NCBI GenBank assembly: GCA_964016885.1
Contig: CAXHJY010000005.1
Location: forward strand, 1 to 27,402
Length of the DNA: 27,402 nucleotides
Source: Eledone cirrhosa
Taxonomy: Eukaryota
Reading direction: 5' to 3'
The first letter of the stretch is position 1, and the number at the start of each line of letters is the position of its first letter. The notes below the pieces were generated by a model. It ran no database searches and was not told where the DNA came from. It saw only the letters and a program-made list of their open reading frames with translations. The position numbers were made by a program, and so were the translations under genes. Of this stretch, positions 2-25,532 are shown piece after piece.

Positions 2-118
2 TCGCTATTAAGTTCTGTTTTGTTCTTGTCTATTATCGCTGGACTTGCAACCTGCCATGAATGTGATGTTCACCCTCACCAACTGTGTTCATCTTTTGAA
101 CTTGCACAGAAATGCAAT
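2..118 (+). CDS. IFI30: GILT/IFI30-like thiol reductase, coding exon 1 (signal peptide + N-part of saposin A-like module); start ATG probably ends at base 1
   Basis: Frame 2 reads SLLSSVLFLSIIAGLATCHECDVHPHQLCSSFELAQKCN with no stop: hydrophobic leader followed by a C-x7-C-x8-C pattern. It ends at a strong donor AAT|GTAAGT (119), phase 0, and joins in frame to the exon at 18233 (MIDAC supplies the 4th Cys). Base 1 is G, consistent with (AT)G. Confidence 0.8.
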
Positions 119-583: not shown

Positions 584-925
584 TTAAAGTTTTGGTCTAA
601 TGATAATAAAATCGTGGGTTCAATTCTCCGACTATGTGGTGACGCATAGTGGCTTTGAGCAAGGGACCCACTTCTCGTTACTCTCATTCACTCTGTTAAA
701 AAGGAATAGCAACAATAGCTATAACAGCCTGGCGTACGGTCCATGCAGCAGTCGTATACTTTCAGTCACTGAACGCCACATAAAACCGACATAAGTCCCA
801 GCTTTCATTCAGCCTGTGCTAACAGAAGAACGGCCGCAAAAACGATGAATGTCCTGTTTTCATGAATATTTTTTTTTTCTTTGACTTTTTGTTCGGTTAT
901 TAAAAGAAAGAAATCATTATTGTTT

Positions 926-1109
926 GGATTGGCAGTATCGGTAGAGGGTCGGACGCCATGTTTTCCAGCATAGTTTCGTCCCTTTACGATCTGAGTTCAA
1001 ATCCCGCCGAGGTTGGCTTTGCCTTTCATCCTTACGGGGTCGATAAAATAAAGTACCAGTAATGCACTGGTTAATTGCTGGCCTTGTGCCTAAAGTAGAA
1101 ACAATTATT
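926..1109 (+). mobile_element. tRNA-derived SINE (family A)
   Basis: A-box-like TGGCAGTATCGGTAGAG, B-box GTTCAAATCCC, body ctttgcctttcatccttacggggtcgataaaataaagtaccagt, tail ggccttgtgcctaaagtagaaacaattatt; many copies in the window. Confidence 0.9.
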
Positions 1110-1874
1110 GTTGTTATCTAGCCCAAGGCCAGCTTTTATTAAGCGAACCTATTATTTTAAAGCATATCGCTCGTGATGATTCAGTCTTTAATTTATTTTG
1201 TTTGCTTTAAAGACAAAACTTATATTTTTTATCACTTAGCCATGAGAAAGGGCACAGCCGATCACCGAGGGTGATGGGAGCAAAGTATCCTCAAACCAGA
1301 GAACTGAACATGCAATAGGGTGGATTCTCTTGAGGGCACTTAATAGCTAGGTATTATGTTATACTGGGTGACCACTCCAATATGCCAAGGCGGGTTTTGC
1401 TCTGAGTATAAAGTGTCGCTATTTCAACAATAGAGGCTCCATTCTTGTATCCCAATTTTTCTGGTAACAATAGATGGCATTTAAACTCAGAGCTTCCAGA
1501 ACTAGGAACAAATACGTCATATATCCTATCTAATATTCTAATTCCCCCCACCCAACAGCTTAGACTAGTACCTTATTTATTGACCCCAGAAGTACACAGA
1601 AAGTTGACGATTTGTAATCGGAAGGAAAGGAGTCGAAATATTTGCTGCAAAATATATATTTCACCTCCTTCGCTTTAATTTGCGTATATATAAGGGACTA
1701 TAGTTTGACTATAACTCCTTCCGATGGAGTTTATACAGCCAGATATAACTCTTCAATGAAAATTATATACTCGCTCATGTAAAATCTCTCAATTTTGCCT
1801 AATTTTTCCCCGTTTTGGGGCCAATTTTTTTCATGGCACTCCATGGACTTTTAGAAGTTGGCAGGTCTGATTAG

Positions 1875-3460: not shown

Positions 3461-5250
3461 TCGAGAGATGTTCGTTCTATTCCATAGTGAATTAACTGGC
3501 AATATGGATTATAATGGTATACATTTTTATTTGTAGTTATTTTCATAAAAACTATTAAACTGTTGAAGAAAATACACTATATGGAGTCGCGACTGGTCAA
3601 GCACCTATGACTGATTGATCATGTTTGCCTTATCAAAGCACAAGACTGGGCAAGATGTTTTAAGGAAGGTCAACAGTCAACCACACGTGCCATTCTCCAT
3701 TCTCTACTACATTGATATTGTTCAAGGGGAAAGGCAAATGTCGAACAGCTTGGCACCAGTATCGTCGAGACTCACCTTTTTCCAGCTGAATAGACTGAAG
3801 CAACATTAAATAAACTTGTACGGCTCGGTCCAAGAATCAAACTGACTATTTTACGATCGTGAGACCAAACATCCGAACAACTACGCCAGGTGCTTTCTAT
3901 ATGAGAGCACATGTTTCGAGATATCATTGTATTTTCAACAAGCATCTGTATTCTTGTAAGATTTAAATAATTGACAATGAGACGTACAAGTAGTAGATAT
4001 AGTGATTATTACTAGTCCTGTCAGCAGATATAATCTTGGAAAATATTAACCGAATAACAAAAGGATTTGCAGTTAGAATGTTTACATCAATATGTTATTA
4101 GGATTGTTTCTGACAGGTGGGATCGTGAAGGGGTTAATCGATATTGGCCAAAATCGATACTTATTCCGACAAGTGAAAGAATATTTTGTTGATAACGTGG
4201 TAATGCATAAAAATAGTTTATATTGGTCAAATATAACTATACCGCTGTGAAGGCACGTATCTTAGTGGTTCATGATCTTCAGGCCGTGAGATCGGTCTCG
4301 GATTGCGTCTTGTCCTTTAACAAGACGCTTAATTTTACTTGCTCCAATCCACCCAGCTAGTACAAAATGAGTTGAACCTGTAATTTAAAGAGCCAGCCTT
4401 ATCCCACACTGTCTGGCTGCTTTTCATGAGAATTACGATTAACATACAGGTGTCTAAGGAATGCTCAGCTATTTGTACCTTAATTTCACAAGCCGGCTGT
4501 TTCAATGTTCAAACCAACGGAGGTACACCCCAGTACCATATCTCTATCCATTCAGTCGTACATACTATGGAGGCTAACACCGAGAGAAACATGATTGTGG
4601 TCCTCAATAGCGCCACTAATGCAACTAGAGCAAAAGCATTGTATAGGTTAGAGGTGTAAGAAAGTAGTTCTCATGGCAAATACCAGTTAAATCATGTCAG
4701 TGATATGTAATTCACAGTTCCTTACTCCCATCAAATGTGTAACCATCTTTCTGCGTAACAAATCAATATATCCACATATGCATTGTGTGTGCATTTAAGA
4801 GGAAATAGTTGTTTAAACATTTTAAAGTAAATAGTTATGCGCGCAGTTTTTATCGATTTAATATTTTTTTGTTGTTGCAAGTTCATTTGTTTTTAGACAT
4901 GAATGAGAGTTTGTGGCGGTGGCATAAATGAAAACCATGAGAACCAAAACACCGTTACCAACTCGGTTTTCAGGGAATTTATCCTTTGTTTTACCCGGAG
5001 GAGAAAGTCGAGTAAATCGACCCAGTGCGTTACTGGTACTATATTTTATCAAACCAAAGGATGAAAGGCAAAGCTAACCTGATCATGACTTGAAACTAAA
5101 ATGTAAAGAGCCAGTGCATATACTGTAAATAATTTTTCTCACCATTTTAAGAATTCTGCCAACTCTCCACTAGCAAAAAAGAAAAAAAAAACTGCACTAT
5201 GATAGTAGGATAGAAAAGTAAGGACATTATTTAAAAAACAAAAAAGCGTT

Positions 5251-5685
5251 GGATTGGCAGTATCGGTAGAGCATCGGACAATATGCTTTGTTGCATAGTT
5301 GCGGCCCTTTATGTTCTGAGTTCAAATCCCACCGAGGTTAGCTTTGCCTTTCATCCCTACAGGGTCAAAAAATAAATTCCCAGTAACGCCACATGGTCAA
5401 TTTAATCAACTTCCCCTCTCCGAAAATTGTTGGCCTTGTGCCTAAATCAGAAAACATTATTTGAACAAGCAAAAGTGCAGTTGATTGGCAGTATTGGTAG
5501 AGCGTCGGACACTATGCTTCGTGGCATAATTTAGTCCCTTTACATTCGGAGTTCAAACCCGGCAGAGGTTACGTTTGTCTTTCATCCTTAAGGGGCTGAT
5601 AAAATAAAGTACCAGCATCTCATTGGGGTCGATTTAATCGACTTTCCACTTCCTCCAAATTGTTGGCCTTTTTGCCTAAATCAGA
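5251..5685 (+). mobile_element. Two tandem tRNA-derived SINEs (family A), 5251-5460 and 5483-5685
   Basis: Each has gattggcagtat(c/t)ggtagag, gttcaaa(t/c)cc, ctttcatcc and ggcct(t)tgtgcctaaatcag. Confidence 0.85.
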
Positions 5686-6269
5686 TTAAAAATTACCCCC
5701 CCCCCCCCCCCCCCCCCCAAAAAAAAAGTTGCTATTTTGGTGAGGACCATATGTGATGAACAGTGTGCTGGATTAATTCTTTCACGGTATTTGTTCCGGC
5801 TATCTGCATTCTGATTTCAAATCAATCCCACCGAAGTAAACTTTGTTTTTCGTCTTTTCTTTGTGATAGGTACATAAAATAATAGTCCTGAGATTGGCGG
5901 AATTGTTATAACATCTGTTATCTACTTCGGCATTTTGCATTCTATGATCACCTGAGATGGCACTAGTGACAAGCTATATCGTCTCTTGCTTTTCCTTTGG
6001 ACAACGTGTGCTTGGAAGGGAAAACGTTGCATGCATGGGCAACAATAGTTGGTCTTCCCCAAAATACTTTGGCTAGGATTTGAGGAGACTAGGTAATTGT
6101 CAATTACATATGATCGTCCGTATGGGAACTGCTCTTGTTTCTAGTACCTCTTAGAGAAGCTAACTTTTGCAGCGCTCTTGCTGTGGCATTGCAGGCATTA
6201 GTGGCGCCAATGATGGTCACAATCATGTTTTGCCTCCACGTGATGGTAATGTTATTATTACCAGAGACA

Positions 6270-6712
6270 GGGCGGTGGATTGGTAGTAACGGTAAAGCGT
6301 CGGACAAAATTCTTTGCGGCATATAGTTATAGCGCGTTATGTTCTGAATTCAAATCGCGCCGAGGTTAATTCTGCCTTTCATCATTTCAGGTTCGATAAA
6401 ATAAAATACCAGTAACGCACTGAGGTCGATTTAATCGACTTGTCTCTCCGCACAAATTGTTGGCCTTGTGCCTTAATCAGAAACAATTATTACCAGAGAG
6501 CGGTGGATTGGCTTGATCAGTGGAATGTTGGACAACATTCTTTGTGGTATTTGTTAGTTACGACTTTCTACGTTCTGTGTTCAAATCTACCGAGGTTAGC
6601 TTTGCCTGTCATCCTTGCGGGGTGGATAAAATAAAGTGCTAATCTACTACTCGGTCGATTATAATCACCTGTTTCCTCTCCTCACAAATTGGTGGTCTTA
6701 TGTCTAAAAAAG
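6270..6712 (+). mobile_element. Two tandem SINEs (family A), ~6270-6492 and ~6498-6712
   Basis: gcggtggattgg heads, ttcaaatc B-box, gataaaataaa body. Confidence 0.85.
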
Positions 6713-9272: not shown

Positions 9273-9552
9273 TTTAAGTGATAGTACCATTTCAGAATGC
9301 TGGCTTATACTGGTATGTGTGTGTCTTTATTACATTTTTCTAGTCACTTCCATACTTCTCCTGCCCACCTCCTCTCTCAATATTTGCAATATTTCATCTG
9401 TCTGCCATCCACTCTGTGGATTCTCTCTCTGCCCATCACTGGCAGCTGCCCTCCGAAGCATTTTTACCCATCATTGTCATTGACAGCAGCTGTTCTAGCG
9501 TTGAATTCAAATATAAAATATACCCTCCCTTCGTCTCCAACAGACAACAATG

Positions 9553-9590
<38 letters not shown>

Positions 9591-9908
9591 TTAAGGGTAC
9601 TATTTATGGTTATGTATGCACTAAAACCTTTGATGGTAATATATTATATATACACAAACCCTAAATAGTGAGAGATAGTCATTAATTACTATCCTATTAC
9701 CAGTAAGATAAATAGCTCAATGTAATAACATCAGTTGTCACCCCACTGTTGATCAATATGCGCATATGTTTTATGTGTCTCTTGGGTTGAAAAGGAGGTC
9801 AAGTATGTTATAAATAGTTGCTCCGAAGAATCCAAACCTCGGTTTGGAGGAAACAATTGTAAGCAAATAAATGACTTAAACTGAACTTTGATTACTGTAA
9901 TCTCTCTC

Positions 9909-9942
<34 letters not shown>

Positions 9943-10165
9943 AACATTGTTGTCTCTGTTGGAGACGAAGGGAGGGTATGACAATGATGGGTAAAAATGC
10001 TTCGGAAGGCAGCTGCAAGTGATGAGCAGAGAGAATCCACAGAGTGGATGGCAGACAGATGAAATATTGAGAGGAGGAGGGCAGAAGTATGGAAGTGACT
10101 AGAAAAATGAAATAGACAGACATACCAGCAAGAGCCAGGATTCTGAAATGGTACTATCACTTAAA
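9273..10165. repeat. Fold-back element 1: inverted arms 9273-9554 and 9943-10165 with ~390-bp spacer
   Basis: tttaagtgatagtaccatttcagaat...cagacaacaatgtt is reverse-complemented as aacattgttgtctctg...attctgaaatggtactatcacttaaa; the left arm has an extra ~40 nt (about 9481-9520). Confidence 0.95.
9818..9866 (+). ncRNA. Minimal type I hammerhead ribozyme motif (U4C core variant)
   Basis: Stem I TTGCT/AGCAA; core CCGAAGA; stem II TCCAAAC(C)/(G)GTTTGGA closed by an A.G mismatch; GAAA (9850-9853); palindromic stem III ACAATTGT; triplet GUA (site 9861); TATAAATA directly upstream. Confidence 0.75.
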
Positions 10166-10233: not shown

Positions 10234-10364
10234 GAGGTTATATTTAACTTGTTGGGATTCAACAAGCTTAAACATTTTTATAACTGATATAAAGCACTCA
10301 ACAGTTTAGTGGAGTAAATACACATTATATTAATAAATGGAAACTATATTTATAAAACCATATT

Positions 10365-10429
10365 TATTTTATTATACATATTTCAAGAGCAACCAAGGCA
10401 AATTATGGTGCGCTTTCATCAGATAAATA
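10365..10429 (-). ncRNA. Type I hammerhead ribozyme motif (left arm of fold-back 2)
   Basis: Minus strand: tatttat CTGATGA aagcgcacc ataatttgcctt ggttgctctt GAAA tatgtat A ataaaata. Intact core, stem II with one mismatch and one bulge, near-palindromic stem III, stem I TTTAT/ATAAA. Confidence 0.75.
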
Positions 10430-12232
10430 CAGATGTTTTATAAATAAATATTGATATACCCGGAAAAAAAGACAACCTTAACGGTTGGAGCTTCCTGGAT
10501 AGTGGATAGTACATTTATTGAGTGATACAACATTGAGTGAGTATGCAAATGAGTGTCCGAAAGGTTGAAAAGATGACGGTTTATTTAAATTAAACTGTTG
10601 GAAGAAGGTGATATGTAAGGGAGAGAAAAAAGAAAAAAAGAAAAGGAGAAAGATAGAAGAGGAAAGAAAGAACGATTATATATATTGAAGAGATGAGTTT
10701 CAAAGGATAAATATTCACAGCGTAAGTATATCTAAGTGAGAGAAGAAATGATAATAACGTGGAAGAATAATATTTATAATGCAGGATTCATTACGTTTTG
10801 ATTATAATACTTATGATAGGTTGAAAAATTAGATTAAAATTAAATTAAAATTAAAAAATTAGAAATCAAAATTAAAGATTAAAATTTACCTTAATATTAA
10901 AGATTTAATTTAATAATTTAATAGTAATAATTAGTTTAAATGTGTATGTTAAGGATTATAAATTATTTAAATTAATATATAGTATATTACATTAGAGCAA
11001 ATCTAGTATAGTTTATTTTATTAAAAGTTGTAAGTCAAAAATTTAAACATCCAAATAACTCTAAATTTATGAAAAATTTACGAGAGTTTACAAAGGAATA
11101 ACCACTTAGTTATATTATAAAAACAGTAAGGAAGTGTAAAGGAAGTTAGAAGTGTTTTTTTTTTTTTTTTTTTTTTTTTCCCCCGTTTCAAGAACTCAGA
11201 TCACTCTAAGGATTAAATGTTATAAAGTTGAAAAGTTAAAATTTTTTTTATCTTAAGAATATAATTAAATCATGAACCATATGTTATTTTATACGAAGTC
11301 ATAAATTTACTTGCTATAAAGTTAAAACATTTAAAAAAATGTATCTTAAGAATATATTTAAAGCATAAACCATAGGTTATTCCACATATATATAAAAAAC
11401 CTATATATAAAAATCATGTTTTTTCCACATGTATATAAACATTTGGATATATATATTAAAAAAGTTTGAAGATATAAAAACATTGGAAGGTATGAAAATA
11501 ATGGTTTATCTATATCTTTAATAAGTGGTTATTCCTTTGTAAACTCTCGTAAAATTTTCATAAATTTAGAATTATTTGGATGTTTAAATTTTTGACTTAC
11601 AACTTTTAATAAAATAAACTATACTAGATTTGCTTTAATGAAAAATACTATATATTTATTTAAATAATTTATAATCCTTAACATACACATTTAAACTAAT
11701 TATTAATATTAAATTAAATCTTTAATATTAAGGTAAATTTTAATCTTTAATTTTGATTTCTAATTTTTTAATTTTAATTTAATTTTAATTTAATTTTTCA
11801 ACCTATCATTATAAGTATTATAATCAAAACGTAATGAATCCTGCATTATAAATATTATTCTTCCACGTTATTCTCATTTCTTCTCTCACTTAGATATACT
11901 TACGCTGTGTATATTTATCCTTTGAAACGCATCTCTTCATGCACTTTATTTTCACTATCAATATATATAATCGTTCTTTCTTTACTCTTCTATCTTTCTC
12001 CTTTCTTTTTTTCTCTCTCCCTTACATATCACCTTCTTCCAACAGTTTAATTTAAATAAACCGTTATCTTTTCAACCTTTCGGACAATCATTTGCATACT
12101 CACTCATAATTTTGTATCACCCTCAATAAATGTACTATCTCCACTATCCAGGAAGCTCCAACAGTTAAGGTTGTTTTTTTTTTTTTTTTTTTTTTTTCGG
12201 GTATGTCAATATTTATTTATTAAACAAATCTG

Positions 12233-12297
12233 TATTTTATCTGATGAAAGCGCACCATAATTTGCCTTGGTTGCCTTTGAAATATGTATAATAAATA
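12233..12297 (+). ncRNA. Type I hammerhead ribozyme motif (right arm of fold-back 2)
   Basis: tattttat CTGATGA(12241-12247) aagcgcacc...ggttgccttt GAAA(12279-12282) tatgtat A(12290) ataaata. Confidence 0.7.
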
Positions 12298-12340
12298 AAT
12301 ATGGTTTTATAAATATAGTTTCCATTTATTAATATATTAC

Positions 12341-12376
<36 letters not shown>

Positions 12377-12522
12377 TGTTATACTTTGGGAGGGTCATGT
12401 TGCCAATAAGAAACACACGCACCAGATGCTTTCACTTCAATTTATTATAATAAATTTATAAATTTAGGAATTTATAAATTTCCGGTTGGTTGGTTCCACA
12501 ACCAGATGGTTGTTTATATATT

Positions 12523-12565
12523 ATCAAAGTTCTTTCGTCACACATTCTGTGACCTCTTCAGTAAC
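12523..12565 (-). ncRNA. Minimal hammerhead motif with extra nucleotide after CUGANGA (left arm of fold-back 3)
   Basis: Minus strand: gtta CTGAAGA g gtcaca gaatg tgtgac GAAA gaact t tgat. Confidence 0.65.
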
Positions 12566-13148
12566 TGGGGATTCTTTTCTTTGTTTTTGTGCCTCTCCTT
12601 TGTTCTGTCCTACGCCATCTTGTTTCTGTGTGAGTATTGTGTGCTCAGTCTGCGCATGCGCCACATCTGTGTGTTTATATTCGTTTATTTATTTGTTTAT
12701 TTACATGTCACAGGTTGGTTGTTTGTTCTATGTGCGTGTGTGTTTTCATTTTGTCCTTAATTGTAAGTTGTGATGTTGCTGTTCCACTCATGTTTTCTAT
12801 TTAATTTTGGTTGTAATTCTTTTATGTTTATTGCCTCTGATTTGTCTAAACGCAATGTTTAGACAAATCACAGAGGCAATAAACATAAAAGAATTACAAC
12901 CAAAATTAAATAGAAAACATGAGTGGAACAGCAACATCACAACTTACAATTAAGGACAAAATGAAAACACACACGCACATAGAACAAACAACCAACCTGT
13001 AACATGTAAATAAACAAATAGATAAACGAATATAAACAGACACCCGGATGTGGCGCATGCGCAGACTGAGCACACAACACTCACACAGAAACAAGATGGC
13101 GTAGGACAGAACAAAGGAGAGGCACAACAACAAAGAAAAGAATCCCCA

Positions 13149-13189
13149 GTCACTGAAGAGGTCACAGAATGTGACGAAAGAACTTTGAC
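13149..13189 (+). ncRNA. Minimal hammerhead motif with extra nucleotide after CUGANGA (right arm of fold-back 3)
   Basis: gtca CTGAAGA(13153-13159) g gtcaca gaa tgtgac GAAA(13176-13179) gaact t(13185) tgac. Stem I GTCA/TGAC, 6-bp stem II, triplet CUU. Confidence 0.7.
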
Positions 13190-14094
13190 AATATATAAAC
13201 CATCTGGTTGTGGAACCAACCAACCAACCAACCGGAAATTTATAAATTTATTATAATAAATTGAAGTAAATACAACTGGTGCGTGTGTTTCTTATTGGCA
13301 ACATGACCCTCCCAAAGTATAACAATATCGGTTTCAACACACGTTTTCAGATAAAGAATCTTGCTAAACAAATTCAGAAACGAAATATATATATATATAT
13401 ATTAGCGTGTGTGTGAAAGAGGCAACTAGTCGAAACAGCCGAGTTCGATCCTCTATTTACACGCACGCACGCATATATCTACACACGCACACACACACAC
13501 GTGTATATATATATATATATAAATAAAAACACATATACACGTGTATATGTTTTAAGCTCTACTTGTTTGGCAAATGACTTGATCTAAAACTGAAGCAATT
13601 ACCGCTGCGAAGATTTTTTGACACCTCAATAAATAAACGAAAAGTAAATGTTACAGATTTTGTCTATTTAAATGGCTAACACTGCTCTTAAATAGCGTAA
13701 TTGCTATATACATAAATATATACACATATATACATAAATACATACATTCTCTCTTTCTCTCTCTTCTCTCTGTGTGTGTGTGTGAAATTCTATACGATAG
13801 TTTCCGAATTAGCTGAATATAGATGTTTTAGGAAGTAAAGGCAGATGTAATCACACAACAAATATAATTAAACCTATAGAAAAAAAACCCCAGGTTTTAA
13901 ATCATTTTGAATTCCTTACACATGTTTCAATAGTTATACTTCAAATTTTTCGAATAATACTAGATGGGAATTCGTATAATCCAGATCTGTACATACAAGA
14001 TGATATAGAGATATTTGGACTTGTCCATCTTCAGAGGATTAAAACAACGTATTAAATTGAAACCGGAATATATCAGAAATTTTATTCCCGCCTC

Positions 14095-15684: not shown

Positions 15685-16142
15685 CTCTAGTCATTGGAAA
15701 TACAGCGGACAAGTAGTTGGTCTGTTAGAAGCCTGTCACAGACCATGTTGTTTACAATATGAATGATATAAATAAATAAATAAATGCTCCTACTGATTAG
15801 TTGAGATGATTGATATCTCCCATTCCTATTGTGATATTTCATCACGGAAATACAACAAACACAAATATGGCTAAGCTTAAAGGAAACTGCCAGAGGTTAT
15901 ATAGTCAGTAATATGGCTTCCATGAACATCTAGAAAAGCCGTTGGTTGCAAGTGGGATAATAATACATTTTAGAATGTTAATTTATTGATCTAAAACAGA
16001 GGTCGAACATTTCTAGAGATGGGTTGAATTGGAAATGTTTTATTTGTCTTGTGGGCCAAAGCAAATATATAGGGAAACCATAATCATACAAAACTACGGA
16101 AACGGCTTATTTTAAATTACTTCCACGTATTTCATTATAATA

Positions 16143-17000
16143 TTGTTCTTGTTCTTCTTGAGAGGGTCGATAGGGGGGAGGGGCAGTCCTCAAACACTCC
16201 TTCCAGCGGGTCCAGTCAAAGAACTGCCTCCAACTGATCCGGCTGGATCCCCAAAGCGAGACCAGCCGAGTTCATGGATGTTAGCTGACCAATTGCTTGG
16301 TCTACTCCTGGGTCTCATGTCGGCTGGTTTTGCTCGTAAAACCTGTTCGGCAATTCTTTCCAAAGGCATTCTAACCACATGCCCATAGTATCGGAGCCGT
16401 GATCTTTCAATTGGGAGAAGCAGCGGCTCTGTCTGGAGTGACTCTCTGATCTCCAAGCTACGCACTCTCTCGTGTAACGTTACTACGAAGACTTTTCAGA
16501 AGAACCCCAATTCGGCCGTTGTATTTTCGATCGTATTCTTTCTGTCAATACCGAAGATTGATGGCCATAGGTAAGAGTTGGCACGAATACCGAATTGAAG
16601 ATAGTTTTACTATTATTGCTTTCTCCCTTCTTCTGATAACCGAATGCTGAAGCTGGCGCATTACTGCACCAGTTCATGCAAATCTTGCACTTAATTCTGC
16701 CTCCTGCCTTCCATCACTCGTGAACACGGCCCCGAGATACTTGAACGTCTGTACTTGCGTCAGTGGAAATACATTCACATGTAGAGTGCACTGCGCAGGC
16801 TTCCTTGAGAGGATGTCTGTTTTCACAGCACTGATTTTCATTCCAGACGTGCAGCACTCTGCATCAAACCTATCGAGTGCAAGTCGTAAATCACCTTCTG
16901 TCGAGTTAAGTAACACCATGTCGTCTGCAAGTTCCAGCCGACTGATTTTACACCCGCTAGTCATGATACCACTTCCAGCACGGCTGCGTATGTTCATGTA
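16143..17000 (-). mobile_element. 5'-truncated RTE-clade LINE (Expander/Rex3-like), RT C-terminal half, frameshifted
   Basis: ORFs 16674-17033, 16483-16677 and 16190-16465: LELADDMVLL (RT F/YADD box), GMKISAVKT, FKYLG, FVPTLTYGH, RLRYYGHVVRMP, RPRSRP; (AAG/AAC)n-like tail near 16143-16160. Confidence 0.9.
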
Positions 17001-17002
17001 AA

Positions 17003-17095
17003 TAATTTTCTCCTTTTGGCACAAGGCCAGCAATTATCCCAGTGTATTACTGGTACTTTATTTTATCGACCCCGTAAGGAGGAAAGGCAGTTAAC
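17003..17095 (-). mobile_element. SINE family A, 3' part
   Basis: ggcacaaggccagcaattatcccagtgtattactggtactttattttatcgaccccgtaagga, nearly identical to the copy at 21187-21377. Confidence 0.85.
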
Positions 17096-18232: not shown

Positions 18233-18415
18233 ATGATCGATGCTTGCAACTCTTATCTGTCACCGGTCCCCAAAGTAAACAAGGTAAGGGTGTCGGTTTT
18301 TTATGAATCAAGATGTCCCTACAGTATCAAGTTCATATTAAATCAACTAACGATAACCTACAAGCGAATAAAAGAGATCATGGATGTTGACTTGGTACCA
18401 TTTGGAAACTCTCAT
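18233..18415 (+). CDS. IFI30: GILT/IFI30-like thiol reductase, coding exon 2 (thioredoxin-fold active site, CPYS)
   Basis: Acceptor ...ctaattacAG|ATG, donor CAT|GTAAGT at 18416. 183 nt: MIDACNSYLSPVPKVNKVRVSVFYESRCPYSIKFILNQLTITYKRIKEIMDVDLVPFGNSH, matching the GILT motifs V-x-V-x-V-F/Y-Y-E-S-x-C-P-x-S/C and LVPFGN. Confidence 0.95.
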
Positions 18416-19649: not shown

Positions 19650-20585
19650 ATCGACTATGAGAGTTCCAGCCGTTAGATCAATGCAACTGCCTGTTCATGA
19701 AACTGACTTATAAGTGGTGGGGAATTCCAGACACTGACAAGGCTCGCTCATTGAATTACAGGTACAGTCTGTCCGGAGGGCTTCCAAGCAGTCTCCACCT
19801 ATTCAGTTTCCCACACAAGGCTTCTGTCGACCCAAGGCTAAATGACACTTGCTCAAAATGCTAGAGCATGTAATCGAACCCGTTATTTTATGATTGCAAA
19901 TCAAACTTCTTAAGCATTCACTCATTGCTTCCAGACCTTTAGATATAATAATTATACTAATTATAAAAATAATTTTAAACACTTTAAATTTGTCTACTTA
20001 TCGTTTATTATTGGTAGATTGGCAGTATCGGTAGAGCGCCGGACAAAATGCTTTGCGGCGTAGTTACGGCCCTTTACGTTCTGAGTTCAAATCCCACCGA
20101 GGTTAGCTTTGCTTTTCATCCTGCTGGGGTCGATAAAATAAAGCACCAGTAATGCACTGTGGTCGATTTAAACGACTTTCCCCTCCCATCAAATTGCTGA
20201 CCTTGTGCCTAAATCGGAAACTGTTATTTAACGCCAAGTCGCCTTTAATCAAGTATATCTGTGATTAAAGGCATTTCAGCAAATACTCTATCTTTTGTGT
20301 TGGGGATAATATTCTCGTGCCTACATTCGCCAATGTTAGTTTGGGTGGTATTTCGTTGTTATTTTTAGCGGATCCAAAGTATAAGCTCATCTCTTAAAGT
20401 ATATCAAGTCTGTCGCGATGGTGATAACTATAATATAGAAGTAATTCTGATTGCAAATTCTGTAGACCATTTTTTAAATCTTAATATGGGTGTCTGCAGA
20501 AGTGAACTCATAAAAAAAAGATAAGATATTCATAATTGAAAAATGTTATACATTTAGAGAATGTTTAAGTATTATGTTTCAGACT
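19650..20585 (-). repeat. Inverted copy of segment 2690-3460, interrupted by a younger SINE at ~20016-20228
   Basis: Alignment to 2690-3460 continues on both sides of the SINE (ggggttaacaaaaaacgataag at ~3082-3103 is contiguous in the first copy). Confidence 0.75.
20016..20228 (+). mobile_element. SINE family A, full length
   Basis: gattggcagtatcggtagagcg...gttcaaatccc...ccttgtgcctaaatcggaaac. Confidence 0.9.
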
Positions 20586-25106: not shown

Positions 25107-25532
25107 TGACTTCATGCCGAGGTTGACTTTGCCTTTCATCCTTACGGGGTCGATAAAATAAAGTACCAGTAATGCACTGAGTATTTGCTGGCCTTGTGCC
25201 TAAAGTAGAAACAATTATTATAGGATAGGGCGGTGAATTGGCAGTATCGGTAGAGGGTTGGACGCCATGATTCTAGCATAGTTACGTCGAGGTTAACTTT
25301 GCCTTTCATCCTTACGGAGTCAATAAAATAAAATACCAGTATTATAGGATTGGCAGTATCGGTAGACGGTCGGAAGCCATGCCTTGCAGCATAGTTACGT
25401 CCCTTTGCGGTCAGAGTTCAAATCCTGCCGAGGTTAAATTTGCCTTTCATCCTCAGGGGGTCGATAAAATAAAGCACCAGTAATGCGCTGGGATAATTGC
25501 TGGCCTTGTTCCCAAACGTAGAAACAATTATT
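25107..25532 (+). mobile_element. Three tandem SINE family A copies (partly truncated) just downstream of exon 4
   Basis: Three repeats of gaggtt.a.tttgcctttcatcct...ataaaataaa..accagta at ~25119, ~25289 and ~25430. Confidence 0.85.

What the first reader, a model, noticed from the sequence alone, without database searches (positions are those of the whole stretch)
9818..9866. Compact hammerhead with palindromic stem III and U4C core, sense to the host pre-mRNA and not masked by an antisense arm
Seen: TTGCT-CCGAAGA-A-TCCAAACC-TC-GGTTTGGA-G-GAA-ACAATTGT-A-AGCAA, preceded by TATAAATA. It sits in a ~310-bp unit (9588-9900) between (TA)n and (TC)n tracts in the loop of fold-back 1. Known: minimal Penelope-type hammerheads have self-complementary stem III and cleave as dimers. 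Inference: this is the motif most free to fold in the GILT pre-mRNA, but the U4C change and the A.G closing mismatch may reduce or abolish activity.
Basis: partly seen in the sequence, partly recalled or inferred. Interest (0 to 1): 0.7.

Follow-up and report, generated by a model that had tools for sequence, protein, structure and literature searches.

The report
C4-core hammerhead of Hydra retrotransposons
This is the hammerhead RNA motif from the end of a Penelope-type jumping gene, found over 4,000 times in this animal genome and here stranded in an intron; its odd core letter (C for the usual U) is the normal state of whole families of the element rather than damage to this copy, and it likely makes a slow self-cutter that needs a partner copy and is predicted to stay misfolded at this lone site.

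Summary
The motif is real and exactly as described. It is the end-repeat (pLTR) hammerhead of a young Hydra-clade Penelope-like retrotransposon. The window holds a 320-bp two-armed stub of that element in the first intron of a GILT-like gene. C4 is the family state: 4,259 exact C4 matches against 37 canonical U4 and 56 G5A copies, so U4 copies look like CpG decay. C4 also dominates older related families (92 of 100) and a distant third family (35 of 36); a tree test rejects one exclusive C4 clade. Between two subfamilies with dS about 0.55 the motif is 45/47 identical, and both changes keep the stem III palindrome. The element is copied from uncut RNA: both 3' ends lie downstream of the cut site and no truncations pile up there. 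Best reading: a slow, dimer- or protein-dependent hammerhead. Cleavage is untested. U4C is known from a viroid; I found no fixed U4C retroelement family in the papers I could read. This scan already noted C4 Hydra hammerheads on other DNA of this genome (e1-10319565).

The parts
9818..9866 (+). Type I minimal hammerhead motif of the element's pLTR
   Evidence: identical 49-mer in most fetched copies
9823..9829 (+). Core strand C3-C4-G5-A6-A7-G8-A9; C4 at 9824 in place of canonical U4
   Evidence: 4,259 C4 vs 37 U4 vs 56 G5A genome matches
9830..9849 (+). Stem II: A10.1.G11.1 mismatch, then 7-8 bp hairpin
   Evidence: pair probability 0.57-0.86; 11.1 is A in 11, G in 4, U in 1 of 16 aligned relatives; one A-U/G-C covarying pair
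9853..9860 (+). Palindromic stem III, predicted intermolecular helix of a double hammerhead
   Evidence: cofold; subfamily variants keep pairing
9861..9862 (+). Predicted cleavage site after GUA (H17 = A)
   Evidence: position from hammerhead consensus; cleavage not tested; no genomic truncation pile-up
9736..9905 (+). Sense arm: last 170 nt of the element up to 3' end site 1, 5'-truncated
   Evidence: 170 of 170 identical to L032 6882-7051
9587..9738 (-). Inverted arm: 152 nt of the ~175-nt tail, ending at 3' end site 2 next to (TA)n
   Evidence: 149 of 152 identical to L032 tail
9736..9738 (.). 3-nt microhomology (TGT) joining the two arms
   Evidence: the junction differs in the other short two-armed copies printed
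9554..9587 (.). (TA)17 target microsatellite
9901..9942 (+). (TC)n / (ATCTCT)n tract at end site 1, longer than the element's template
9273..10165 (.). Older fold-back repeat (arms 9273-9554 and 9943-10165, 86% alike) whose centre received the insertion; a different repeat family
   Evidence: other genome copies only 71-83% alike
2..118 (+). Predicted first coding exon of the GILT-like host gene (hydrophobic leader, Cys-rich), GT at 119
   Evidence: no Pfam hit; inferred
18233..18415 (+). GILT-domain exon of the host gene
   Evidence: Pfam PF03227; AG/GT borders

Best explanation
The motif is the pLTR hammerhead of a Hydra-clade Penelope-like retrotransposon, carried into a predicted GILT intron as part of a two-armed truncated insertion, and its C4 core is the inherited family state, which likely gives a slow self-cutter that is predicted to fold only as a dimer. 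Shown: the parent element (4.2-4.3 kb unit, 830-832 aa RT/GIY-YIG frame, one hammerhead per unit, sense to the ORF), the C4 counts, purifying selection on the motif, and two fixed 3' ends about 40 and 215 nt downstream of the cut site. Inferred: two tandem pLTR copies in one transcript pair through the palindrome, probably helped by the element's protein as reported for the anole element; C4 weakens but does not abolish cutting after GUA, possibly by standing in for U4 as a protonated C; the reverse transcriptase starts at the two downstream sites on uncut RNA, so slow cutting costs the element nothing and may help it. The window copy arose when both sides of a break in (TA)n were extended from the two start sites and joined at a 3-nt microhomology; alone and misfolded, it likely does nothing to the host transcript.
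For: Parent: window pieces match a long element with inverted and tandem pLTRs; 13 of 13 frames of 829-832 aa have a C4 hammerhead downstream (loci picked for long frames). Counts: 4,259 C4, 37 U4, 56 G5A; two insertions carry one C4 and one U4 copy (L052, L058). Older families: 92 C4G5, 4 U4, 3 G5A, 1 both among the first 100 of 288 matches (counted by eye). Third family (47-49% protein identity): C at position 4 in 35 of 36 copies, with canonical G10.1-C11.1. Selection: dN 0.10, dS 0.53-0.59 between subfamilies; hammerhead 45 of 47 identical against 35-65% in the 100-column bins of the upstream 3' UTR, P 3e-8 (upstream rate) to 2e-4 (downstream rate). Palindrome: 3,099 matches with changed centre, all 100 listed are G-U or G-C forms. 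C3, G5, A6, G8, A9, G12, A13, A14, A15.1, U16.1 invariant in 16 aligned relatives while N7, 11.1 and H17 (A, C, U) vary. Uncut template: 12 of 33 loci span both hammerheads; 58 site-1 and 17 site-2 ends among 89 copies. Literature: viroid U4C is slow in vitro yet sufficient in vivo (PMC3088659); PLE hammerheads are slow dimers (PMC4209133); the anole one needs the protein and insertion uses uncut RNA (PMC11167929); C+ can replace U in a U-turn (PMC4105743).
Against: No cleavage was measured. In a deep mutational scan all single changes in the CUGA turn gave low activity (PMC9901934). There is no genomic trace of cut RNA: 4 matches broken at the cut site (2 point changes, 2 internal deletions, no 5' truncation) against 11 at a control position. 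That C4 itself is selected is not shown: synonymous CpG cytosines are kept 7 of 12 and 7 of 15 times across the same subfamily split. The covariation rests on few events (2 pairs change on both sides; 108 of 500 shuffles reach that number), and the 16 aligned rows were mostly found with C4 patterns. The C+ precedent is from other RNAs, not from a hammerhead.
Confidence: 0.6

Rival explanations
1. C4 has switched cutting off; the fold is kept only as a scaffold for RNA dimerisation or for binding the element's protein.
For: CUGA single mutants have low activity (PMC9901934); catalytic mutants did not reduce insertion in vitro for the anole element (PMC11167929); no truncations at the cut site; the palindrome and stems are conserved.
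Against: All catalytic positions (C3-G8, G12) and a non-G H17 are kept across families 65-86% identical in protein and in a third family at 47-49%; viroid U4C keeps some activity (PMC3088659).
Confidence: 0.22
2. Position 4 is simply relaxed in these hammerheads; C4 drifted in with a master copy, or is held by an overlapping DNA-level signal in the pLTR, and changes little.
For: CpG cytosines at silent sites survive the same split about half of the time; C4 families are not one clade (AU p 0.005, at least 2 changes); an unchecked note reports a U4A family in this genome (e1-10310971).
Against: C4 is the majority state in every family of the main clade examined although the CpG constantly yields U4 copies; all 34 published Hydra/Chlamys rows read have U4, as do 66 of 70 other-family hits in the fetched loci.
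Confidence: 0.13
3. One reading: this copy folds in the GILT pre-mRNA and cuts or regulates it.
For: It is sense in a predicted intron and lies in the loop, not the arms, of the fold-back.
Against: Stem I probability 0.02-0.09 in context; no partner copy in the window; sequence identical to thousands of young copies, so no sign of host-specific retention.
Confidence: 0.05

Closest known systems
Hydra clade of C-terminal EN+ Penelope-like elements and their hammerheads, e.g. Hydra-1_Obim (Craig et al. 2021, PMC8557442; section 11, passages, supplement part 2 and supplement searches read)
   Same: Single RT + GIY-YIG ORF with DKT, CxCX5C, CxxC and CxH motifs, (TA)n targets, inverted and tandem pLTRs, one sense hammerhead near the 3' end with a palindromic stem III and often a 10.1/11.1 mismatch.
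   Different: All rows of File S2 have U4 (ctga); none has C4 or an A.G mismatch. The unit here is 4.2-4.3 kb with a 1.4-1.9 kb 3' UTR (published: mostly <3 kb), RWR instead of RWK, a GFKTF motif present, and a ~175-nt tail instead of 30-40 bp.
Minimal hammerheads of metazoan PLEs (Cervera and de la Pena 2014, PMC4209133; parts 1-2 of 4 and one of two supplement files searched)
   Same: Type I, short stem I, long stem II, palindromic helix III, predicted dimer, low expected activity.
   Different: Their consensus is CUGANGAH with G10.1-C11.1; the core variant reported is U3-A8, not C4.
Viroid U4C hammerhead (Ambros and Flores 1998, seen only as cited in Perreault et al. 2011, PMC3088659; passages and section 8 read)
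   Same: Same core change; reduced activity in vitro but enough in vivo.
   Different: A variant of a viroid RNA, not a state fixed in thousands of genomic copies of several retroelement families.
PAc Poseidon element of the green anole (Frangieh et al. 2024, PMC11167929; parts 1-2 of 4 read)
   Same: Two reverse-transcription start sites downstream of the hammerhead define the tail; both target strands are extended; uncut RNA is the template.
   Different: Different clade, canonical core as far as read, 30-40 nt tail; its hammerhead overlaps the ORF start, whereas here the frame begins about 250-300 nt downstream.
C+ for U in U-turns (Gottstein-Schmidtke et al. 2014, PMC4105743; abstract, passages, section 9 read)
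   Same: A protonated C can take the first U-turn position.
   Different: Shown for a riboswitch and a 23S rRNA loop, not for a hammerhead core.

Membership tests
Hammerhead ribozyme (type I, minimal) | Three helices around the core, in type I order | tested here: met
   helix III only as an intermolecular helix
Hammerhead ribozyme (type I, minimal) | C3-G8, G5, A6, A9, G12, A13, A14, A15.1-U16.1, H17 not G | tested here: met
   invariant in 16 of 16 aligned relatives; H17 = A, C or U
Hammerhead ribozyme (type I, minimal) | U4 of the CUGA turn | tested here: not met
   C4 in 4,259 vs U4 in 37 matches; a variant with an active viroid precedent, so filed as a variant, not as a canonical member
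Hammerhead ribozyme (type I, minimal) | Base pair 10.1-11.1 | tested here: not met
   A.G here, A.A in older families, A-U in L172, G-C in the third family; U.U mismatches are common in Hydra hammerheads
Hammerhead ribozyme (type I, minimal) | Compensatory changes in the stems | tested here: inconclusive
   92.9% of cells paired, covariation score above 500 of 500 shuffles, but only 2 pairs change on both sides (108 of 500 shuffles reach this)
Hammerhead ribozyme (type I, minimal) | Self-cleavage after NUH | not testable with these tools
   no assay; no RNA run listed
EN+ Penelope-like element | Single ORF with RT and C-terminal GIY-YIG | tested here: met
   830-832 aa frames with YRDD and YIGST/YVGST motifs; Pfam gives no hit, so this rests on motifs
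EN+ Penelope-like element | pLTRs from partial tandems, inverted 5'-truncated copies, tail at one end | tested here: met
Hydra clade | DKT, CxCX5C linker, CxxC and CxH around the conserved E and N | tested here: met
   ADKT (5 of 6; PDKT in 1), CNCRxxRTC, CNLC, CQHR in 6 of 6 proteins against the definition
Hydra clade | RWK motif; GxKF/Y not conserved; length under 3 kb | tested here: inconclusive
   RWR and GFKTF present; unit 4.2-4.3 kb
Hydra clade | Insertion into (TA)n | tested here: met
Hydra clade | Groups with published Hydra proteins in an RT tree | not tested
   published proteins were compared by eye only; the trees hold sequences of this genome alone
Retrozyme (non-coding tandem hammerhead repeat) | Short non-coding unit replicated as such, in tandem | tested here: not met
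   the ~310-bp pieces have different junctions in each readable copy and derive from the coding element

The most novel reading that the evidence does not exclude
Natural hammerheads have replaced the U-turn uridine with a (probably protonated) cytidine, at least twice or once with a later loss, and the change is selected as a brake: it keeps the RNA whole long enough for the element's reverse transcriptase to start behind the cut site. These elements would then be a ready system to settle what Penelope hammerheads are for.
Probability: 0.25. Interest if true: 0.7.

Novelty: new variant of a known kind. Interest (0 to 1): 0.42.

Why it matters
The role of hammerheads in Penelope-like elements is open (PMC8557442, PMC11167929). 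Here a successful family with intact reading frames has kept a core change regarded as damaging while conserving everything else, next to U4 and U3-A8 families in the same genome. That gives a natural series for testing whether cutting is needed, and whether C can serve at position 4. Descriptors that demand CUGANGA miss these thousands of motifs. For the GILT gene itself the copy is probably irrelevant.

Tried and rejected
Rfam: no hammerhead family at E<=1. Pfam on the element protein: no real hit (one spurious E 0.04 match). RNA evidence: no RNA holder listed. The contigs of 4 runs of unrecorded kind, one study, list no other letter at the C4 place at 5% or more; weak, possibly not independent. 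Copy-specific decay of U4: rejected. An active U4 subfamily: not seen; U4 copies are spread over several subfamilies and are fewer than G5A copies. A separate 310-bp mobile unit: rejected (L007 was mis-anchored in that printout and not read). Cut RNA as template: no excess of ends at the cut site. A second hammerhead in the unit: none on either strand in two elements. One exclusive C4 clade: rejected, AU p 0.005, 3 of 13 rows left out (short or without a readable hammerhead), test run after seeing the first tree, and it depends on one U4 family read by eye. The endonuclease-only tree was uninformative and mislinked nested hammerheads. TATAAATA as a conserved promoter: not kept in the sister subfamily. 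Literature: 10 searches; 'U4C' with hammerhead appears only in PMC3088659. Not held and not read: Lunse et al. 2017, Ambros and Flores 1998, Nelson and Uhlenbeck 2008, Arkhipova et al. 2017; supplement file 1 of PMC4209133 was not searched; figures are not visible. A C4 variant may be described there. PMC3376415 and PMC6155905 (passages) and PMC6061696 (abstract passage) added nothing on hammerhead C4.

Full report
Observation. The motif is at 9818-9866 as written. A looser descriptor gives 3 hits in the window and at least one hit in 3 of 300 shuffles. Rfam does not report it. The window is a whole small contig of a 3.0-Gb genome; I did not establish the species. A GILT-domain exon lies at 18233-18415 and a likely first exon at 2-118 joins it in phase, so the motif is sense in a predicted 18-kb intron.

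What it is part of. The 313-bp query splits into two parts in the genome. The part 9736-9905 is the 3' end of a long element and matches L032 at 170 of 170 letters; the part 9587-9738 is the reverse complement of the tail that follows it in full copies, 149 of 152. The two meet at a 3-nt microhomology. Other short two-armed copies have other junctions, so the 310-bp piece is not a mobile unit. The long element has a repeat unit of 4,336 bp or 4,189 bp, one hammerhead per unit and a stop-to-stop frame of 830-832 aa. The protein has DKT, CxCX5C, CxxC and CxH motifs and the copies sit in (TA)n, which fits the Hydra clade as defined in PMC8557442; RWR, GFKTF and the length depart from that definition, Pfam gives no hit, and no tree with published proteins was built.

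C4 is the family state. An exact 20-mer with C4 has 4,259 matches, the canonical U4 form 37, and the G5A form, the other product of the same CpG, 56. These are motif counts; many insertions carry two. Two insertions hold one C4 and one U4 copy. All 13 frames of 829-832 aa examined have a C4 hammerhead downstream. In older relatives, found with a pattern open at positions 4 and 5, the first 100 of 288 matches are 92 C4G5, 4 U4, 3 G5A and 1 both (counted by eye). A third family, 47-49% identical in protein, has C at position 4 in 35 of 36 copies, a canonical G10.1-C11.1 pair, a 94-nt stem II region and the same palindrome. Other hammerhead families in the fetched loci keep U4 (66 of 70 hits; 2 were C4, 2 doubtful). 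The tree puts a U4 (U3-A8) family as sister to the third family and rejects one exclusive C4 clade (AU p 0.005): two origins, one origin and a loss, or a swap of end modules.

The fold is under selection. Two subfamilies differ by dN 0.10 and dS 0.53-0.59. Their upstream 3' UTR bins are 35-65% alike, yet the hammerhead is 45 of 47 identical (P 3e-8 on the upstream rate, 2e-4 on the more conserved downstream rate). The two changes turn the A-U centre of the palindrome into G-C; of 3,099 matches with a changed centre all 100 listed are G-U or G-C. In 16 aligned relatives the ten core positions other than 4, 7 and 17 never change, while N7, 11.1 and H17 vary as hammerhead rules allow. The covariation rests on few events, and most rows were found with C4 patterns. 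Whether C4 itself is favoured is open: silent CpG cytosines survive the same split 7 of 12 and 7 of 15 times.

How it likely works. Alone, the RNA is predicted to misfold: stem I has probability 0.02-0.09 in four contexts; two copies fold as a double hammerhead with an 8-bp helix III at -31.0 kcal/mol. Among 89 copies, 58 end at site 1 about 40 nt behind the cut site, 17 at site 2 about 175 nt further, 12 run on into the ORF and 2 have variant tails. So every such copy was made from RNA uncut at that hammerhead; 12 of 33 loci span both hammerheads, and there is no excess of ends at the cut site (4 matches, none a 5' truncation, against 11 at a control position). This matches the anole element, where two internal start sites define the tail, both strands are extended, uncut RNA is the template and cutting needs the protein (PMC11167929). 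PLE hammerheads are slow even as dimers (PMC4209133). A viroid U4C is slow in vitro but sufficient in vivo (PMC3088659); single CUGA changes had low activity in a mutational scan (PMC9901934); a protonated C can replace U in other U-turns (PMC4105743). I therefore read the motif as a slow, dimer- or protein-dependent cutter (0.6), with a non-cutting scaffold (0.22) and a relaxed position 4 (0.13) as rivals. Cutting, protonation and protein help are all inferred.

The window copy. It is a lone, young stub at the centre of an older fold-back. It has no partner in the window and is predicted to misfold, so an effect on the GILT pre-mRNA is unlikely (0.05). No RNA data were available.

Comparison and novelty. 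All 34 rows of the published Hydra/Chlamys table have U4, and the consensus of PMC4209133 is CUGANGAH. Ten paper searches gave U4C only for the viroid. Four relevant papers were not held, above all Lunse et al. 2017, and one supplement file and all figures were unseen, so the claim that a fixed C4 family is not in print is provisional. Earlier notes of this scan, seen after my own tests, report the same C4 Hydra hammerheads on other DNA of this genome, a U4A family, a U4C Penelope stub in another genome and U4C cores in phages; they are unchecked. Verdict: a new variant of a known kind, interest 0.42.

Noticed in passing
window 9901-9942; site-1 ends in loci L001-L195: 35 of 58 site-1 ends carry 3-37 TC units where the element's template gives one (20 have one, 3 none, none two); the window end has ATCTCT repeats and L016 a duplicated 9-mer. 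This suggests repeated copying at the start of reverse transcription, of interest since these enzymes are sisters of telomerase; insertion into compound microsatellites is the alternative. One paper search found nothing.
   Followed up: partly
L002 2025-2174 (-); L208-L237: Third, distant Hydra family with C4 core, canonical G10.1-C11.1, 94-nt stem II region and 3-bp stem I; 35 of 36 copies C4.
   Followed up: yes
window 10368-10427 (-) and 12236-12295 (+): Two canonical CUGAUGA hammerheads in the arms of the fold-back 10326-12336 (90% alike), of another repeat family; similar hammerheads follow Hydra-type ORFs in L239 and L240.
   Followed up: partly
window 12373-13328: Near-perfect 950-bp fold-back (92%), a repeat seen in many fetched loci; its Rfam microRNA hits are below gathering scores.
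   Followed up: no
L032 7051-7226 and other copies: The tail between the two 3' ends is about 175 nt, far longer than the 30-40 bp reported, and is 75% conserved between subfamilies.
   Followed up: partly
L241 4029-4080; L248 4661-4770; L039, L047, L133: U3-A8 hammerhead cores in several other families of this genome.
   Followed up: partly
window 18233-18415: The GILT exon reads SRCPYS, a CxxS-type site where the mammalian enzyme has CxxC (recalled).
   Followed up: no
window 900-1110, 5240-5690, 6270-6710, 20010-20230, 25110-25530 and others: Many copies of one short interspersed repeat family.
   Followed up: no
window 16116-17033 (-): Decayed LINE-type reverse transcriptase fragment (ORF listing; read by eye).
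   Followed up: no
L101, L104, L109-L111: A subfamily of the element with an extra ~390 bp in the 3' UTR.
   Followed up: no
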